Source of the DNA: an uncultured Fibrobacteraceae bacterium
GTDB taxonomy: Bacteria; Krumholzibacteriota; Krumholzibacteriia; LZORAL124-64-63
Direction of reading: 5' to 3'
NCBI GenBank assembly: GCA_964545545.1
Contig: CAZJGK010000004.1
Span: 1-62,662 of the forward strand
Length of the DNA stretch: 62,662 nucleotides
Shown here: one piece after another, positions 2 to 12,393 of the stretch
How positions within the stretch are numbered: position 1 is the first letter of the stretch
Layout: every line of letters starts with the position of its first letter
Translations under genes and position numbers: made by a program
Notes under the pieces: model-generated
Told to the model about the DNA's origin: nothing
The model's database searches: none
What the model saw: the letters and a program-made list of their open reading frames with translations, nothing else

Positions 2-547
2 TTCCTGGATAAATTGGCCGACACCATTTTCCTGCAGGACACCACCGGCAGCGGCAGCGGCGACAGCTTCGGTGTGGATTTCGGTATTCACATGAAGGTG
101 CCCCGCCTCAAATCCAATTTCGGTCTGGCGGTGGCGAACCTGGGGCCGGGAATCCAGCATGTCAATGCCGCCCAGAGCGACCCCATGCCCCGCAAGATGA
201 CCTTGGGTGTTGCGACCAGCTTGTACCACAGCGAATTCATGGGTCTGCTGGCCGTGGCGGATTATCTGGTGCCGTTGTACAAGTATTCGAATGACAAGTG
301 GGGTACGGGCTTGGCCACCGAGGAAGAGGAGTACGGCGGCGGTTTCGAATGGAATTACCTACGCTCCCTGTTCATGCGTATCGGTTACAAGAGCGCTGAT
401 TTCGGCGACATCAACGACTGGACCTATGGCTTCGGCGTGGACCTGAACCGGTGGGTCGGTCAGGCTGTCACTTTTGATTACGCATCGGTTCCCCAGGCCA
501 AGGGATTGCCTTCGGTGAATCGCTTGTCGCTTGCCTATCGGTTCTGA
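2..547 (+). CDS. Outer-membrane beta-barrel protein, PorV/PorQ-like (5' end outside window)
   Basis: The frame is open from the window edge. It shows an alternating beta-strand pattern, is Gly/aromatic-rich, and ends ...LSLAYRF with the C-terminal Phe typical of Omp85-assembled barrels. The PorV/PorQ call is by resemblance only. Confidence 0.5.
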   Translation, partial: FLDKLADTIFLQDTTGSGSGDSFGVDFGIHMKVPRLKSNFGLAVANLGPGIQHVNAAQSDPMPRKMTLGVATSLYHSEFMGLLAVADYLVPLYKYSNDKWGTGLATEEEEYGGGFEWNYLRSLFMRIGYKSADFGDINDWTYGFGVDLNRWVGQAVTFDYASVPQAKGLPSVNRLSLAYRF

Positions 548-626
548 TCAAGCCTTGAAGCCCCACCCCTGGGCATAGGAGTTGGCGTTGTTTCCTGTCA
601 AAAATAATGGTCCTGCACCCCACCGG

Positions 627-3600
627 ATGTTGTGGGGTGCGGTGTGTGCCTTGGCTTTTGGGTTGATGTTGTGGGCGGGTATGGCCGCGGCGGCCGACCG
701 GGCACCTTACGGCCGGATCCCCGCCAAGCGCTGGAATGAAATGCAGCTGGAACAGAGCACCGGCGGGAAAGCTCTGGAGCAGCGGGAGCATTTCCGCGCG
801 GCGGAAAGGGAGCGCCGGGGGTTCGCTGTCCACAGCCTGCTGGGCAGCCACCTGGTCTCCCGCAAGAGCCAAGCCTTGTTGCGCGCCAGGGGACTAGGTC
901 CGGCTTTGCTCGCGGCGGGGCAGCCCGGTTTTGCGGACAAGCAGGCCCAGGACTATCAGGATACCCTGCGCATTCTCATCGTGCGGATCTCTTTTGCAAC
1001 CAACCGGGATTCCAGTCTGACCACCATCGCGCCCGATGGCAATTTCGTTCTGGCTCCGCTGGCCAACCCGGGGCCCCTGGAGATAGACCCTCCACCCCAC
1101 AACAAGGCCTTCTACGAAGCGCACCTGCAGGGGCTTTCGGAGTATTACGATTACCAGTCGGGAGGGCGGCTCCACATTGAAGGACGTGTGCTGCCGGAGG
1201 ATCCCGACGGCAGCTACCAGGTTAGCGATGTGGCGGATTATGGTCCCGGCACCGGCGGGCTCTGGACCCTCGAGGATCTGGAACGACTCGTGCAGGACAT
1301 GATAGTGGCCGCGGATCAGGGAACCCAGGCGGATCATGCGGCCAACCTGGCTGATTACGACGACGACAATCCTTTCACCTATATCATCTTCGTCCACGCC
1401 GGCAGTGACTGGCAGAGCGACATCAATGGGGATTCACCCAACGATATCCCCACCTTCTTTGTGACCCTGGGTTCTCCTCAGCCGTTGACCAGCAGCGACA
1501 GTGGAACCAGCGCCACCGGGATGCTCTCGGAATGCTCCATCATTCCCGAGACAGCGAGCCAGGATGGATATCCCGGCAGCATTGCCGCGGCGTTCTACCA
1601 TGAATTCGGCCATGCTCTGGGTCTGGTTGATGTCTACAACACCGAAGCGCAGACACCCAACGCGGGGATCTGGGACCTCATGGATTCGGGCACCAATCTG
1701 GGCGTGACCATCGGGTCGGTTTCCGCTGAGGGCGACACGACGTTCATCGTCGCCAACGGTGTGCTGCCCCCGTCCCTGGGAGCCTGGAACAAGTGGTTTC
1801 TGGGGTGGCTGGACGTGGGCGAGATCCAGGGCCAGAAACAGCAATACCGCCTGCCGGCCGTCGAGGTTCCCCGCAGCCAGTACGGGACCTACAACGGAAC
1901 GACCGGCTATTTCAGCGATCGGGATCACCAGGCTCTGCGGGCGGGAATTTCCTCCCGGGAATGGTTTCTGCTCGAAAATCGGTGGGTGCCGAGCGGTCCT
2001 GACGAAACGCCCTACTTCAATCTTTCCTTCGAACGGGACGAGAATACCGGCGTCATTCTGTACCTGGCCGGGGAGCGGCCCGTGGGTTTCTGGAAGAATT
2101 CCGGTCTCTACGACTATTTCATGCCTGCCGGCGGGGTTCTGGTCTGGCATGTCAACGAGGACAGGATCGAGCAGGGGTTGGCGGACAACACCATCAACAC
2201 CCAGTCCGACGGGTTGCGTCTGGTCGAGGCCGACGGTATTACCGACATCGGCATTCTCGATTCCTATGTCCTGGGCTGGTACGGATCGGTGCGCGATCCC
2301 TTTGGCGGTTATGATTCCGCCGGCTATACGACTGATTACAACAACCTGTTTACCACCGGCTTTCCTTCGAGCCGGGCCATTGACCGCTCGTGGACGGGAT
2401 TCTTCCTGACGGATGTGGTCCCCAATTCCCGGGACAAACCCAGTGTGATGCGTTTCAAGGCCGGGATTGCGCCCCTGGTCGAGGGTTATCCCTGGACCAT
2501 GGACCCTGCTGGGCAGGGGGTTCCGCGGGCCCTGGCGGCTGAGTCGCTCACGCCTCTGGTTGCGGCCGATGACCGCAGCATCCTGATCTTTGCCTCTGGA
2601 CCCGCGGCGGGTGATTCGACCCTGGCTCCGGAATTCCTTTTTGCCCTCAATGCCACGGGCAATCCCGTGTGGCCGGCGTTGCCCGGCGGTCCCCCGGGTG
2701 CCTTCGCAACGCTGCCGGGCCCCTTGGCCGGACCTCCGGTGATCGCTGCTATCGGTGCTGCCGGCACCGGGTTGGTCTGGAGCACAAGGTCGGGCGAGGT
2801 GGGCTTGATGGATGTTTCGTCCCAGGCCCATGCCGTGTGGTCGCGGAAGCTGGGCGCGACATTCATGACCGGCGCCGTCACGCTGCTGCACACCGGTCTG
2901 GACCCCGTGGTGTTTGCCCTGGTTGGGGGGGACACGATGACGGCCCTCGATCTTGGAGACGGCACGACGGTTGCCCCGCCGGTGGCCCTGGGGCAGGGGC
3001 CGGTCACCGGGCCGCCCGTGGTCGCCTCCGACCCGGCAGGGGATCAGGTCCTGGCTCCGGGCGCCGCGGGCTGGTACGAAATCGCCGGCCCGTCGTTGAC
3101 CGGCGAGATGGCCTTGACCTATCACCCCTATCCCGCTCGGGAAGCTTCCGCGGGGGTCCGCTGCGTGGTGGTGGATTCGGAGACGGGAAGCCGGGTGTGG
3201 TTCCTGGACGGACAGGGCGACCTGGGGGGATGGCAGCGACAGAATGGCCAGTGGCTGCCCGGCGATCCCCTGGGACTGGACGCGGGTATCGTCTGTGAGC
3301 CCGCCGTGGCCGATCTGGACGGCGACGGCCGGAATGATCTGCTGGTGGCCGACGGCCGCCGCATCCATGCCTTCGCGGCGACGGGCGCCCGTTTGCGCGG
3401 TTGGCCCGTGACCTTGGGTGAGCTGTTTCCCCTGGCCGACACCACGCGCATTCGTGGTCCGTTGGTGGTTGCCGACGGGACCGGGGACGGCATCGACGAC
3501 GTCTACTTCCAGACCAGCGGCGGGCATTTGTTGGGCGTGGATGCCACCGGTTCCCTGTTGCCCGGGTTTCCCTTCCGCTGGGCCGGAAAACGAGCGGCGG

Positions 3601-10493: not shown

Positions 10494-10506
10494 CAGGCTG
10501 AAGGAG

Positions 10507-12393
10507 ATGGCTGGGTGGATGATCCTGGCGGCCGTGGCTGTTGCCGTTTTCCCGGCCGGTGTGGAAACTGCCTGCGCCGGGCCTCGGCCTGTTCCGGTGT
10601 TGAGACTATCGGGTGGGGATGAAGGTTGTCCAGGCTGTTCACAGTGGCTGAAGGAGGATGCGGCCTGGTTGAGGCAACTCAAGGACCAGGAGCGCGCTTT
10701 CGTTGATTTGCCGGAGCCGGCCCGGGGTTTACCCGACACCCTGACACTGGACCTCCGGGCGCTGGCCGCCCTGGGCGGACAGGTGCGGACATCCCTTGGC
10801 GGCCCGGGAAAATCGGGACGTCCGCTGGTCTCCCGGATCAGGGATCGTTGGTTCGCCCGGGGCTATCTCCAGGCTGCCGTTCGTTGGACGGCCGGCGGGC
10901 AAGCCGACCCCGACACCCTCTTTGTGGATCCGGGCCAGGTCTGGACCCTGGCCGGGATCACCCTGGAAGGGCCGGATTTTCCCGGCCGGCAGGCCGTACT
11001 CAAGAACTGGTTGCCCCGGATCGGTACGCGGTTTGCCCCGGCCAAATTGGGTGAGGCCATGGCCGGCCTTCTGGAAGCCCTGGGCGAAAGGGGCTATCCG
11101 TTTCCCCGGTGGGTGACCCGGAAGGTCGAGCTTGATACCCAAACCCATGGCGTCACTCTTGCCGCGAGCCTGCTGCCGGGGAGTCTCAGCCGGATCGGGC
11201 CCGTGACCAGCGACCTCCCGGAAGGACCCGGGTCGGATTTTCTGGTGCGCGCCAGCGGTCTGCGCGGCGGACAACTGTTTTCCTCTGCCAGTCTGAAGCT
11301 TGCCGTTCAAAGGCTTCAGGCGCGGGATCTCTATGACCAGGTGGGGGAACCGCGGGTTTATCTCACTCCAGCGGCCGATACCGTGGGAATCTATTTTCCC
11401 GTGGTGCCGCGCCGCAAGGTCAACAGATTACAGGTCGTGCTGGGGCTCAGCCGCAATAACAGCACCGGACCGAGCCGCCTCAGTGGTCAGGTTGATCTGG
11501 ACTTGCTTAACATGGCGGGCACCGGCCGCAACCTGCAAGCTGGCTGGCGCGACGACGGTGTGGGCACTTCCCGTATCGGCTTCCAGTTTCGGGAACCCCT
11601 GTTGCTGGGGTCTCCTCTGGATATGACCCTCGGCATGAACAGCGAAGTTCGCAAGGATGTCTATACCCGCTTTGATGTCACCGGAACCTGGGAGTTGCCC
11701 GTGGTGGCCTTGTGGGGCCTCGGCGGCGGTTTGGGCTGGAACCGGGCAACATATCCGGTCGGGGACCTGGAGCATACGTCCCGTTTGCTTGTCACCGGGT
11801 CGGTGATCCACAGACGAGGGGATATGGGGAGCAGTGGCTGGTTCGGAAATTTCGGAATCACCAGCGCCCGGGGCTCTACCCGCTTGCGCGGTGCGGGAAT
11901 CGATTCCCTGGCTCAGGATCGGCTCGGCAATTCGACGTCAGTGCGTATCTACTCTGCGGAACTGAGTGGAGAATTGTGGTTGGGCAAAACCTTGAGCCTG
12001 GCGGCACGAACCAATTTTTGCGAACAGACCGGTGGTGACCCGGTGGTCCCGCTAGCGGAACAATTCTGGTTTGGGGGGGCCAATTCCCTGCGCGGCTATA
12101 ACGAACGGGAATTTCATGGCAGCCGGGCTGCCTGGGGTAGTCTTGAACTCCGGATCGGCAAAGTCCGCAGCTCCCGCCTTTACACCTTCTGGGACCTGGG
12201 ATACTTTCATTTTGTGAGGAATTCCCAGGACAATTCCCAGTTCACCGAGACCATCCAGGGGCGCCCCCACGGTTTCGGTCTGGGGCTCTTGGCCCGCACC
12301 AGGGGTGGCGACCTTTCCCTGGCTATCGGTTTCCCGGGCACCGTGGATTTCGACCTGGCCAAGCTTCACGTGACCTTGTTGGAATCTTTTTAA
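10507..12393 (+). CDS. Omp85-family (BamA/TamA-like) outer-membrane protein
   Basis: Signal peptide is [29 protein letters not shown]-like segments are present. The surface-antigen barrel contains [17 protein letters not shown] and ends ...VTLLESF. Confidence 0.8.

What the first reader, a model, noticed from the sequence alone, without database searches (positions are those of the whole stretch)
2..12393. Operon-like outer-membrane/surface gene cluster with no recognisable pathway
Seven co-directional genes are separated by gaps of -1 to 80 nt. They encode a PorV-like barrel, a roughly 1160-aa M6-type protease with FG-GAP repeats and a T9SS-type sorting domain, two tandem paralogues of unknown function, an NHL-propeller lipoprotein, a 1148-aa barrel of unrecognised family, and an Omp85 protein. 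Every product has a signal peptide or a barrel C terminus, so the whole unit is targeted to the envelope. I know of no described system with this composition. It could be a dedicated surface-protease display or secretion module, or an outer-membrane complex with its own Omp85 insertase.
Basis: partly seen in the sequence, partly recalled or inferred. Interest (0 to 1): 0.7.

Follow-up and report, generated by a model that had tools for sequence, protein, structure and literature searches.

The report
Giant outer-membrane barrel with own BamA-like partner
The seven genes are real and conserved. The first ones belong to the known type IX secretion system. The last three (a propeller protein, a very large undescribed outer-membrane barrel and a short BamA-like protein) form an uncharacterised module found in many relatives of the Bacteroidota.

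Summary
There are seven tightly packed + strand genes, all with export signals, and the domain calls are correct. The window starts inside the first gene. In every related contig long enough to show it, porU (the C25 sortase of type IX secretion, T9SS) and a full porV come first. So the 5' part is recognisable: porU-porV plus a CTD-tagged, catalytically intact M6 protease.

The 3' part is the interesting one. The 1148-aa protein matches no Pfam model. It belongs to a family of about 3000 clusters (50% identity), nearly all 1100-1200 aa and all annotated hypothetical. AlphaFold predicts a barrel of roughly 36-40 strands, and its best structural matches are the T9SS translocon SprA. Sequence homology to SprA is not established.

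NHL propeller, barrel and a 3-POTRA BamA-like Omp85 stay adjacent in about half of 63 species from several FCB phyla, with unrelated flanks. That makes them a real module. The link to porUV is confined to a Krumholzibacteriota/Eisenbacteria superclade where housekeeping flanks are also syntenic, so it is weaker evidence.

My best reading is a giant conduit barrel with a dedicated BamA-like assembly partner, possibly T9SS-related. I could not determine whether these genomes also carry canonical SprA and BamA.

The parts
2..547 (+). g1: C-terminal 181 aa of a PorV/PorQ-family (FadL-like) outer-membrane barrel, cut by the window edge
   Evidence: NF033709 PorV_fam 3e-19 on a half-length fragment. 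Full-length orthologues (340-346 aa) hit PF19572 PorV and follow a 1350-1500-aa Peptidase_C25 (PorU) gene.
588..4121 (+). g2: M6-like zinc metalloprotease (about 1165-1177 aa) with FG-GAP repeats and a C-terminal T9SS sorting domain; probable T9SS cargo
   Evidence: PF05547 1.5e-9, TIGR03296 6.7e-22, NF052323 1e-53 (partial), FG-GAP_3. HEFGH is conserved in the 10 full-length orthologues examined in the Krumholzibacteriota-type loci. A profile of the last 80 aa hits the C-termini of 27 other proteins in FCB loci. The gene is absent from 10 of 27 related loci.
4134..5117 (+). g3: signal-peptide protein of unknown function, distant paralogue of g4 (DUF5683-like)
   Evidence: BLASTP against g4 gives E 6e-6 over the LPGxGQ hydrophobic segment and the C-terminal part. 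No Pfam or NCBIfam hit. It ends in ...TVSF.
5147..6013 (+). g4: DUF5683 protein (288 aa) with a signal peptide, a hydrophobic helical hairpin and short C-terminal strands ending ...SRSF
   Evidence: PF18935 1e-7. All 120 listed homologues (of 250 hits) carry PF18935, and those that a source names are Krumholzibacteriota or unclassified MAGs. The AF2 model is poor (pLDDT 55).
6013..7044 (+). g5: six-bladed NHL beta-propeller; a lipoprotein here (lipobox IAGC)
   Evidence: PF01436. The family profile matches TRIM71/Brat/PknD NHL propellers at up to 1.7e-75. It lies directly upstream of the barrel in 57 of 58 metagenome loci and about half of the genome loci. Homologues outside Krumholzibacteriota have a plain signal peptide without Cys.
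7047..10493 (+). g6: 1148-aa giant outer-membrane beta-barrel of an undescribed family (about 36-40 strands predicted), with an N-terminal small beta domain and two domains inserted between barrel strands
   Evidence: No Pfam hit. 30 of 41 family members give a weak TIGR04189 (SprA) match, limited in g6 to aa 303-354. 3056 clusters at E<=1e-3, nearly all listed ones 1100-1200 aa. AF2 pLDDT 75. The top four Foldseek hits are SprA structures.
10462..12393 (+). g7: BamA-like Omp85 (643 aa) with three POTRA domains and a 16-strand-type barrel (LRGY loop-6 motif); overlaps g6 by 32 nt
   Evidence: PF01103 and PF07244. The family profile matches BamA at E 1e-51, with profile positions 53-319 aligned to E. 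coli BamA 196-455; it matches TamA at 1e-24. All members score below the TIGR03303 cut-off. It lies directly downstream of the barrel in 46 of 48 metagenome loci and about half of the genome loci.

Best explanation
The region is the downstream part of a conserved envelope gene block in Krumholzibacteriota-type bacteria. I read the block as two units placed side by side.

Unit 1 is type IX secretion. It comprises porU (just outside the window), porV (g1), and a catalytically intact M6 zinc protease with a T9SS C-terminal sorting domain (g2). The protease is most simply a cargo.

Unit 2 is an uncharacterised outer-membrane module. Its invariant core is a six-bladed NHL propeller (g5), a giant barrel of roughly 36-40 strands from an undescribed family (g6), and a three-POTRA BamA-like Omp85 (g7). 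In this lineage it is accompanied by two DUF5683 membrane proteins (g3, g4).

Proposed mechanism (inferred, not shown):
- The Omp85 paralogue is the dedicated folding and insertion partner of the giant barrel, which is too large for routine BAM handling. The periplasmic or lipid-anchored propeller would act as an accessory, much as BamB does for BamA.
- The barrel has only short external loops and three small domains that I place on the periplasmic side, by counting strands in the model. It would form a wide gated conduit across the outer membrane.
- In the lineages where it sits behind porU-porV, it may work with the T9SS as a translocon-type channel.

Shown: the genes, their families, the conservation of the triad, and the predicted fold.
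Inferred: physical association, the insertase-client relationship, conduit function, and any T9SS role.
For: Gene content and junctions.

Translational-coupling-type junctions: g4/g5 TGATG, g5/g6 2 nt, and a g6/g7 overlap of 32-35 nt that is conserved in homologous contigs.

The barrel:
- AF2 with a 30-sequence alignment gives pLDDT 75 and about 40 long strands by DSSP.
- Foldseek's four best PDB hits are SprA translocon structures (E 4e-9 to 2.5e-7), ahead of SlpA, TonB-dependent receptors and LptD.
- The family has 3056 clusters at 50% identity, and nearly all listed members are 1100-1200 aa. Every member that carries a source name is called hypothetical.

Triad conservation:
- 26 of 63 species-level loci with both flanks available have NHL upstream and Omp85 downstream by the automatic count. 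L022 is a further triad that the Omp85 distance window missed.
- The flanks differ between lineages: ribosomal-protein genes, restriction-modification genes and others.
- In the metagenome loci, NHL is present in 57 of 58 and Omp85 in 46 of 48.

The Omp85 is BamA-like but not BamA.

T9SS side:
- PorU+PorV are present in 27 of 27 loci with enough upstream sequence, and in Eisenbacteria (L022).
- HEFGH is conserved in g2 orthologues, and the CTD is shared with many other proteins.
Against: - No physical or expression data exist.
- Sequence homology of g6 to SprA is not established. The only shared stretch is a generic ~50-aa beta domain that also occurs in phage tail proteins (DUF2460). Profiles of that domain and of the whole family do not find F. 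johnsoniae SprA in the PDB.
- Foldseek TM-scores to SprA are low (about 0.25) and only marginally better than to the 30-strand SlpA.
- In the Ignavibacteria/Melioribacter/Balneolales/Chlorobiota clade the barrel stands alone, without an adjacent NHL or Omp85 gene (32 of 63 loci). So the partnership is either not obligatory or is encoded elsewhere in those genomes.
- The porUV linkage is confined to one superclade in which dnaE-accA upstream and ligA/dinG/hutHI downstream are also syntenic. It may be inherited gene order.
- T9SS-CTD genes near the barrel in other phyla occur at about background density (the background figure is my own rough estimate).
- I could not test whether these genomes also encode a canonical 2400-aa SprA or a five-POTRA BamA.
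Confidence: 0.45

Rival explanations
1. g6 is the T9SS outer-membrane translocon of these phyla: a minimal, cap-less SprA equivalent. PorV would dock on it to collect CTD cargo such as the M6 protease and hand it to PorU. The Omp85, NHL and DUF5683 proteins would be translocon-specific assembly or plug factors.
For: - SprA structures are the four best Foldseek hits.
- The predicted strand number (about 36-40) is close to SprA's 36 (the SprA figure is from PMC12611786).
- 30 of 41 family members give a weak TIGR04189 hit. In g6 it lies at a similar relative position (aa 303-354 of 1148 against model positions 604-653 of 2319).
- The gene sits in one block with porU-porV in 27 of 27 loci of the superclade.
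- Nearly all taxon labels place the family in FCB lineages, which is also the range of the T9SS.
Against: - TIGR04189 scores 22 bits against a cut-off of 200, and there is no PF14349 hit.
- There is no PDB SprA hit by sequence profile.
- The >150 kDa extracellular cap that defines SprA is absent.
- The family also occurs in Gracilimonas mengyeensis (L082). PMC12611786 lists that species among its representatives and states that every FCB phylum except the Chlorobiota has SprA, so g6 is probably a paralogous family and not the SprA orthologue. It also occurs in Chlorobiota-labelled MAGs, the phylum said to lack SprA.
- The porUV adjacency may be inherited synteny.
Confidence: 0.25
2. The seven genes are not one functional unit. 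porU-porV-M6 (T9SS) and the DUF5683/NHL/barrel/Omp85 genes are simply neighbours in a lineage with very stable gene order. The barrel module has a T9SS-unrelated role, for example a large-solute or polymer channel, or an envelope-anchoring barrel like Deinococcus SlpA.
For: - Housekeeping flanks (dnaE-accA upstream; ligA, dinG, hutH, hutI and a TPR gene downstream) are also conserved across the same superclade, including Eisenbacteria.
- Outside that superclade the triad never has porU or porV next to it.
- SlpA is the fifth Foldseek hit, with a TM-score equal to that of SprA.
Against: - Within the superclade the block stays intact and tightly spaced, while ligA, dinG and hutH come and go downstream.
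- There is no SLH or coiled-coil domain as in SlpA, and no TonB-box or plug domain.
Confidence: 0.3
3. The module is ordinary outer-membrane housekeeping under divergent sequence: g7 is the organism's essential BamA and g6 its LptD (with g5 as an LptE- or BamB-like lipoprotein).
For: - The g7 family's best PDB matches are BamA proteins (E about 1e-51).
- Three-POTRA BamA proteins exist in some phyla (own knowledge; cyanobacterial Omp85).
- LptD structures appear among the Foldseek hits (E about 1e-5).
- LptD also has a partner lipoprotein.
Against: - Every g7-family member scores below the BamA equivalog cut-off (best E 3e-56; g7 itself 43.7 bits against 297).
- One Calditrichia locus carries two copies (L038).
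- No LptD, OstA or LptD_2 Pfam hit appears in any of 41 barrel-family members even at E<=1.
- The barrel has far more strands than LptD's 26.
- g5 is an NHL propeller, which is not an LptE fold.
- Ignavibacteria keep the barrel away from any Omp85 gene.
Confidence: 0.07

Closest known systems
SprA/Sov, the 36-strand outer-membrane translocon of the type IX secretion system (PDB 6H3I, 6H3J, 8GL6, 8GL8)
   Same: - It is a single-chain giant beta-barrel and the best structural match to g6.
- Its predicted strand number is similar.
- It is found in FCB-lineage bacteria.
- It shares a small 'DYxIDYxxGxITF' beta domain inserted in the barrel.
- In this lineage g6 is encoded next to porV and porU.
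   Different: - g6 is half the size (1148 aa against about 2400).
- It lacks the large extracellular cap.
- By strand count, its extra domains appear to lie on the periplasmic side.
- It fails TIGR04189 (22 bits against 200) and PF14349.
- It gives no sequence-profile match to solved SprA.
- It has a conserved Omp85 and NHL partner, which is not described for SprA.
- It probably coexists with canonical SprA in at least Balneolales.
BamA with BamB (beta-barrel assembly machinery), and the TamA/TamB module
   Same: - g7 has an Omp85 barrel with the (L/V)RG(F/Y) loop-6 motif and POTRA domains equivalent to BamA POTRA3-5.
- It is paired with a beta-propeller protein, as BamA is with BamB.
- Like TamA, it is a shorter paralogue encoded next to a specific partner.
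   Different: - It has three POTRA domains instead of five and scores below the BamA equivalog cut-off.
- The propeller is a six-bladed NHL type, not the eight-bladed BamB type.
- The partner is a giant barrel, not a TamB-like periplasmic bridge.
- No BamD, BamG or BamH homologues were found in the block.
LptD-LptE (a large barrel with a lipoprotein partner encoded or assembled with it)
   Same: - A large barrel is paired with a dedicated lipoprotein.
- It depends on an Omp85 for assembly.
- LptD appears among the lower Foldseek hits.
   Different: - There are no LptD or OstA domains.
- g6 has many more strands.
- The partner has a propeller fold.
- In most lineages the partner is not a lipoprotein.
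T9SS attachment complex PorU-PorV(-PorZ-PorQ)
   Same: - g1 is PorV-family and is preceded by a C25-type PorU gene.
- g2 carries a T9SS CTD.
   Different: - No PorZ or PorQ was recognised.
- The downstream genes (DUF5683, NHL, giant barrel, Omp85) are not known T9SS components.

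Membership tests
SprA/Sov T9SS translocon (TIGR04189, PF14349) | Whole-protein score at or above the curated TIGR04189 cut-off (200 bits) | tested here: not met
   g6 scores 22.3 bits with one stretch at aa 303-354. The best of 41 family members reaches E 6.8e-12, still far below the cut-off.
SprA/Sov T9SS translocon (TIGR04189, PF14349) | SprA_N domain (PF14349), length of about 2300-2500 aa, and a large extracellular cap | tested here: not met
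   No Pfam hit at E<=1 in 41 members except DUF2460. Family lengths are 1100-1250 aa.
SprA/Sov T9SS translocon (TIGR04189, PF14349) | 36-strand single-chain barrel fold | tested here: inconclusive
   The AF2 model has about 36-40 long strands. SprA chains are the four best Foldseek hits, but with TMq of only 0.24-0.26. Model coordinates could not be inspected.
SprA/Sov T9SS translocon (TIGR04189, PF14349) | Binds PorV at a lateral opening and passes CTD cargo | not testable with these tools
   Only gene adjacency to porV within one superclade is available.
BamA (TIGR03303 equivalog) | Score at or above 297 bits | tested here: not met
   g7 scores 43.7 bits. The best of 19 family members reaches E 3e-56.
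BamA (TIGR03303 equivalog) | Five POTRA domains | tested here: not met
   The family profile aligns only with BamA residues 196-455, that is POTRA3-5, plus the barrel.
Omp85 superfamily | Omp85 barrel (PF01103) with POTRA (PF07244) and the loop-6 RG(F/Y) motif | tested here: met
   PF01103 3.2e-8 and PF07244 1.2e-7. R529 and G530 are invariant within 'LRGY'.
LptD | OstA/LptD_N jelly-roll plus LptD barrel models | tested here: not met
   No such Pfam or NCBIfam hit for g6 or for 41 relatives.
PorV (T9SS shuttle; NF033709, NF033710, PF19572) | PorV-family model match and location next to porU | tested here: met
   The g1 fragment scores 69.8 bits against NF033709 (cut-off 90 for a full protein). 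Full-length orthologues hit PF19572 and follow a Peptidase_C25 gene. The equivalog NF033710 is not reached (29.9 bits against 250).
Peptidase M6 (InhA-like) | M6 catalytic domain with an intact HExxH | tested here: met
   PF05547 scores 37.9 bits against a cut-off of 22. YHEFGHALGL is conserved in the 10 full-length orthologues examined. TIGR03296 is below its cut-off (78.7 against 110.8). The nearest NCBIfam is the 'inactivated' T9SS M6-like family NF052323, matched only in part (182.6 bits against 600).
T9SS type A C-terminal sorting domain | PF18962/TIGR04183 match at the extreme C-terminus | tested here: inconclusive
   Both models are below their cut-offs in g2 (17.8 against 27; 18.1 against 23). 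A profile of the g2 family's last ~80 aa hits the C-termini of 27 other proteins. One of these (L070, 1023 aa) passes PF18962.
DUF5683 (PF18935) | Model match above the gathering score | tested here: met
   g4 scores 32.5 bits against a cut-off of 26.7. g3 has no direct hit but aligns with g4.
NHL-repeat beta-propeller | Six NHL blades | tested here: met
   PF01436. The family profile matches the TRIM71 NHL domain at 1.7e-75 across the whole domain.

The most novel reading that the evidence does not exclude
The NHL propeller, giant barrel and BamA-like Omp85 triad is a previously unrecognised outer-membrane machine of the FCB superphylum. It would be either a second, minimal type of T9SS translocon (a cap-less SprA-like pore with its own insertase) or an altogether new wide-bore export or assembly channel. 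Its barrel would equal or exceed SprA as the largest known single-chain beta-barrel.
Probability: 0.3. Interest if true: 0.85.

Novelty: new variant of a known kind. Interest (0 to 1): 0.6.

Why it matters
Single-chain barrels of more than 30 strands are very rare; SprA is the record holder. How such barrels are folded into the outer membrane is an open question that the recent Bacteroidota BAM structure (PMC12611786) explicitly raises.

Here a whole family of barrels of similar predicted size is encoded next to a private BamA paralogue and a propeller protein. The family has about 3000 clusters, is present in cultured Melioribacter and Gracilimonas, and is annotated only as hypothetical. That would give a natural, genetically compact system for studying assembly of giant barrels.

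If the barrel proves to be a T9SS-type conduit, it would show what a minimal translocon looks like and how the system works in phyla outside the Bacteroidota. If it is unrelated to T9SS, it marks an unknown envelope function that is common in sediment and soil FCB bacteria.

Tried and rejected
1. Sequence link to SprA. Profiles of the whole family (A1, A2) and of the shared small domain (A5) were searched against all PDB sequences and found no SprA. The TIGR04189 hit is therefore treated as a generic domain resemblance, and the same domain hits phage DUF2460.
2. LptD identity for g6 and BamA identity for g7: rejected on model scores.
Narrower alignments A4 and A8 worked.
4. The last homologue search, with the PorV fragment, returned only 10 short fragments and gave no view upstream of porU.
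5. The AF2 model of g4 (DUF5683) reached only pLDDT 55, so no fold search was run on it.
6. tblastn of g6 against plasmids found nothing.
7. The promoter/terminator scan was no better than shuffles.
8. Literature searches (DUF5683; Krumholzibacteriota with T9SS; SprA with Ignavibacteria, Caldithrix or Melioribacter) found no description of this module.
9. T9SS-CTD genes near the barrel in other phyla occur at roughly the density expected by chance, so they were not used as evidence.
10. I could not obtain a canonical SprA sequence with these tools. No profile-profile comparison with SprA was possible, and I could not test whether Krumholzibacteriota genomes carry SprA.

Full report
**Observation.** The window (62% G+C) carries seven + strand ORFs between 2 and 12393, as described. 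I re-read the junctions from the sequence:

| Junction | What the sequence shows |
|---|---|
| g1 to g2 | g1 stops at 547; g2 most likely starts at TTG 588 or ATG 627 |
| g2 to g3 | g3 starts at 4134 |
| g3 to g4 | g4 starts at TTG 5147, behind GGGAGG (not at 4940) |
| g4 to g5 | share TGATG (1-nt overlap) |
| g5 to g6 | 2 nt apart |
| g6 to g7 | g7 starts at ATG 10462, 9 nt after AGGAGG, overlapping g6 by 32 nt |

Gene calls in related contigs show the same g6/g7 overlap, about 35 nt. Every product has an N-terminal signal sequence by inspection. g3, g4, g6 and g7 end in an aromatic residue typical of outer-membrane barrels.

Nearly all genes of the 62-kb window are on the + strand, and tight spacing continues into ligA and a DinG-like helicase gene. 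Orientation and spacing alone therefore do not define the unit. A promoter/terminator scan was uninformative.

**Gene identities** (unless stated).

| Gene | Identity | Main evidence |
|---|---|---|
| g1 | C-terminal half of a PorV/PorQ-family barrel | NF033709 3e-19 |
| g2 | M6 metalloprotease with FG-GAP repeats and a sub-threshold T9SS sorting domain | PF05547, TIGR03296, partial NF052323 |
| g3 | Weak paralogue of g4 | E 6e-6, |
| g4 | DUF5683 | PF18935 1e-7 |
| g5 | Classic six-bladed NHL propeller, with a lipobox here | family profile vs TRIM71 NHL 1.7e-75, |
| g6 | No Pfam hit | one weak TIGR04189 (SprA) stretch, 22 bits against a cut-off of 200 |
| g7 | Omp85 with POTRA | PF01103, PF07244 |

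- **g2.** The HEFGH motif is conserved in the 10 full-length orthologues examined, so the protease is probably active. A profile of its last ~80 residues hits the C-termini of 27 other proteins in related loci. One of those passes PF18962.
- **g4.** An AF2 model was poor (pLDDT 55; helical hairpin plus three C-terminal strands).
- **g7.** A profile of 19 family members matches BamA best (E about 1e-51). Profile positions 53-319 align with E. coli BamA residues 196-455, that is POTRA3-5. TamA matches more weakly (1e-24). All members stay below the BamA equivalog cut-off. g7 is therefore a three-POTRA BamA-like paralogue.

**What lies upstream.** The window starts inside porV. In homologous contigs a 1350-1500-aa Peptidase_C25 protein (PorU) and a full PorV precede the M6 gene. 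The 5' part of the cluster is thus recognisable type IX secretion: the sortase, the shuttle and a CTD-tagged protease.

**The large barrel.**
- The closest 120 homologues are 45-72% identical and mostly 1130-1220 aa. Those that a source names are Krumholzibacteriota-type MAG proteins called hypothetical.
- A profile search of 1.84 billion cluster representatives found 3056 clusters at E<=1e-3 and 1902 at E<=1e-30. Nearly all listed members are 1100-1250 aa.
- AlphaFold2 with a 30-sequence alignment gave pLDDT 75. The model has an N-terminal small beta domain (aa 32-111), about 40 long strands from aa 155 to the C-terminus, and two inserted domains (aa 282-358 and 398-502).
- Counting strands, both inserts fall after an even number of strands. 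They would therefore lie on the periplasmic side, and the external loops are short. This is an inference from the secondary-structure string, because the coordinates could not be inspected.
- Foldseek against the PDB put four SprA translocon structures first (E 4e-9 to 2.5e-7). Next came Deinococcus SlpA, TonB-dependent receptors and LptD. TM-scores are low, about 0.25.

At the sequence level the SprA link is weak:
- 30 of 41 diverse members hit TIGR04189; in g6 the match is confined to a ~50-aa 'DYxIDYxxGxITF' domain.
- The same domain hits phage distal-tail models (DUF2460, TIGR02217).
- Neither the whole-family profiles nor a profile of that domain find F. johnsoniae SprA among PDB sequences.
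- No LptD, OstA or SprA_N signal was seen.

**Gene neighbourhood across genomes.** A scan of GTDB species genomes returned 80 loci. Their labels include:
- Krumholzibacteriota
- Eisenbacteria
- Calditrichia
- LCP-89
- Zhuqueibacterota
- Ignavibacteria and Melioribacter (including cultured strains)
- Balneolales (Gracilimonas mengyeensis)
- Chlorobiota-labelled MAGs

Cluster look-ups add Cloacimonadota and Zixibacteria.

I called ORFs and iterated HMMs built from the window's proteins. Among the 63 loci with both flanks available:

| Context of the barrel gene | Loci |
|---|---|
| NHL upstream and Omp85 downstream | 26 |
| Only one of the two detected | 5 |
| Neither | 32 |

One of the five (L022) is a triad that the Omp85 distance window missed.

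The context follows the barrel's own clades:
- The Krumholzibacteriota/Eisenbacteria branch has PorV, DUF5683, NHL and Omp85.
- The Calditrichia-type branches have NHL and Omp85.
- The Ignavibacteria/Balneolales/Chlorobiota branch has an orphan barrel.

In the triad loci outside Krumholzibacteriota the flanks are unrelated to one another: rplM-rpsI-rpsB-tsf-pyrH-frr in one group, restriction-modification genes in another, and others. Conservation of the three genes is therefore not just inherited local synteny. In these lineages the NHL protein has a plain signal peptide, so lipidation is not conserved.

**The porUV link.** A metagenome scan seeded with a deeper branch of the Krumholzibacteriota-like superclade returned 80 more loci, with barrels 28-100% identical to the seed.

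| Feature | Loci with enough sequence that have it |
|---|---|
| PorU + PorV upstream | 27 of 27 |
| M6 protease | 17 of 27 |
| DUF5683-like genes | 41 of 41 |
| NHL | 57 of 58 |
| Omp85 | 46 of 48 |

The same loci, however, also share dnaE-accA upstream of porU and varying subsets of ligA, dinG, hutH, hutI and a TPR gene downstream. The Eisenbacteria locus shares the dnaE-accA flank as well. Gene order in this region is simply very stable across the superclade. The block does stay intact while the downstream genes come and go, which is some evidence for selection. Even so, the porUV adjacency cannot be counted as independent evidence of a functional tie.

**Interpretation.**
- The best-supported statement is that g5-g6-g7 form a conserved module: a giant barrel with a private BamA-like Omp85 and a propeller accessory.
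- I propose that the Omp85 paralogue is the barrel's dedicated assembly partner and the barrel is a wide, gated conduit. This is by analogy with BamA-BamB and with partner-specific Omp85 paralogues such as TamA.
- A T9SS role is possible but unproven. In favour are the fold resemblance to SprA, the FCB-restricted distribution and the porUV neighbourhood.
- The family's presence in Gracilimonas argues that it is a separate family from SprA, not its orthologue. PMC12611786 lists that species among its representatives and reports SprA in all FCB phyla except the Chlorobiota.
- The housekeeping reading (LptD + BamA) fails the model tests. It cannot be fully excluded until whole genomes are checked for canonical copies.

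**What remains open.**
- Do Krumholzibacteriota genomes encode a canonical SprA and a five-POTRA BamA?
- Do orphan-barrel genomes keep unlinked NHL and Omp85 partners?
- What do the DUF5683 proteins do?
- Are the genes co-transcribed?

No paper in the searchable library describes this module.

**Verdict.** The 5' genes are ordinary T9SS components. The 3' triad is an undescribed, widespread module built from known kinds of parts. Interest is moderate to high, because it offers a compact natural system for giant-barrel biogenesis and may represent a new translocon type.

Noticed in passing
window 24970-42038: A type IV pilus gene set lies here: PilB-like and PilT-like ATPases, PilC, a PAS histidine kinase with a sigma-54 response regulator (PilS/PilR-like), prepilin peptidase, PilM and a secretin. 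An ABC transporter pair is interleaved.
   Followed up: partly
window 21895-24531: An 878-aa ORF has no Pfam or NCBIfam hit and no similarity to g6. An ORF of similar size (854-877 aa) with no Pfam hit occupies the same position after the TPR gene in related contigs.
   Followed up: partly
window 1-62662: Almost every long ORF judged coding is on the + strand, and cumulative GC skew rises monotonically (0.03 to 1.77). The whole contig appears to lie on one leading-strand replichore.
   Followed up: no
g6 aa 32-111 and aa 300-355 (window about 7140-7380 and 7945-8110): The barrel protein appears to carry a second copy of the small 'DYxIDYxxGxITF' beta domain. One copy is at the N-terminus (seen as a similar motif in the family consensus) and one is inserted in the barrel. 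The inserted copy resembles phage distal-tail proteins (DUF2460/TIGR02217) as well as a segment of the SprA model.
   Followed up: partly
g6 aa 196-218 (window about 7632-7700): The most conserved stretch of the whole family is the loop LSDxNLPxxPEGNTxxLxxxDKV, with several invariant residues across phyla. AF2 confidence is below 50 there. It may be a partner-binding or gating element.
   Followed up: no
L034, L042, L052, L069, L070, L080, L085 (Ignavibacteria/Melioribacter), about 0-6 kb upstream of the barrel gene: In the orphan-barrel clade the gene often follows a TolC-like / HlyD-like / ABC ATPase / 2-5 x MacB-FtsX permease cluster and precedes a NUDIX-like gene. The MacB/FtsX call rests on Pfam for L070; the TolC, HlyD, ATPase and NUDIX labels are my reading of the sequences. 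This is probably lineage synteny, but it was not examined further.
   Followed up: partly
L022 (Eisenbacteria) 1-6300; L088, L091, L094, L097, L098, L121 1-2200: dnaE (C-terminal part) and accA sit immediately upstream of porU in both Eisenbacteria and Krumholzibacteriota-like lineages. Both were identified by inspection of the ORF sequences. This shows unusually deep conservation of gene order around this block.
   Followed up: yes
L140 258-1796 and L141 7250-8857: In two metagenome loci an extra ORF with weak similarity to the PorU profile (E 1e-13) sits between the DUF5683 gene and the NHL gene. Its identity was not resolved.
   Followed up: no
protein P0110: One homologue (1215 aa) scores 1004 bits with HMMER, but its best BLASTP alignment covers only 8% of the query at 32% identity. 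This is unexplained; it may be a composition or alignment artefact.
   Followed up: no
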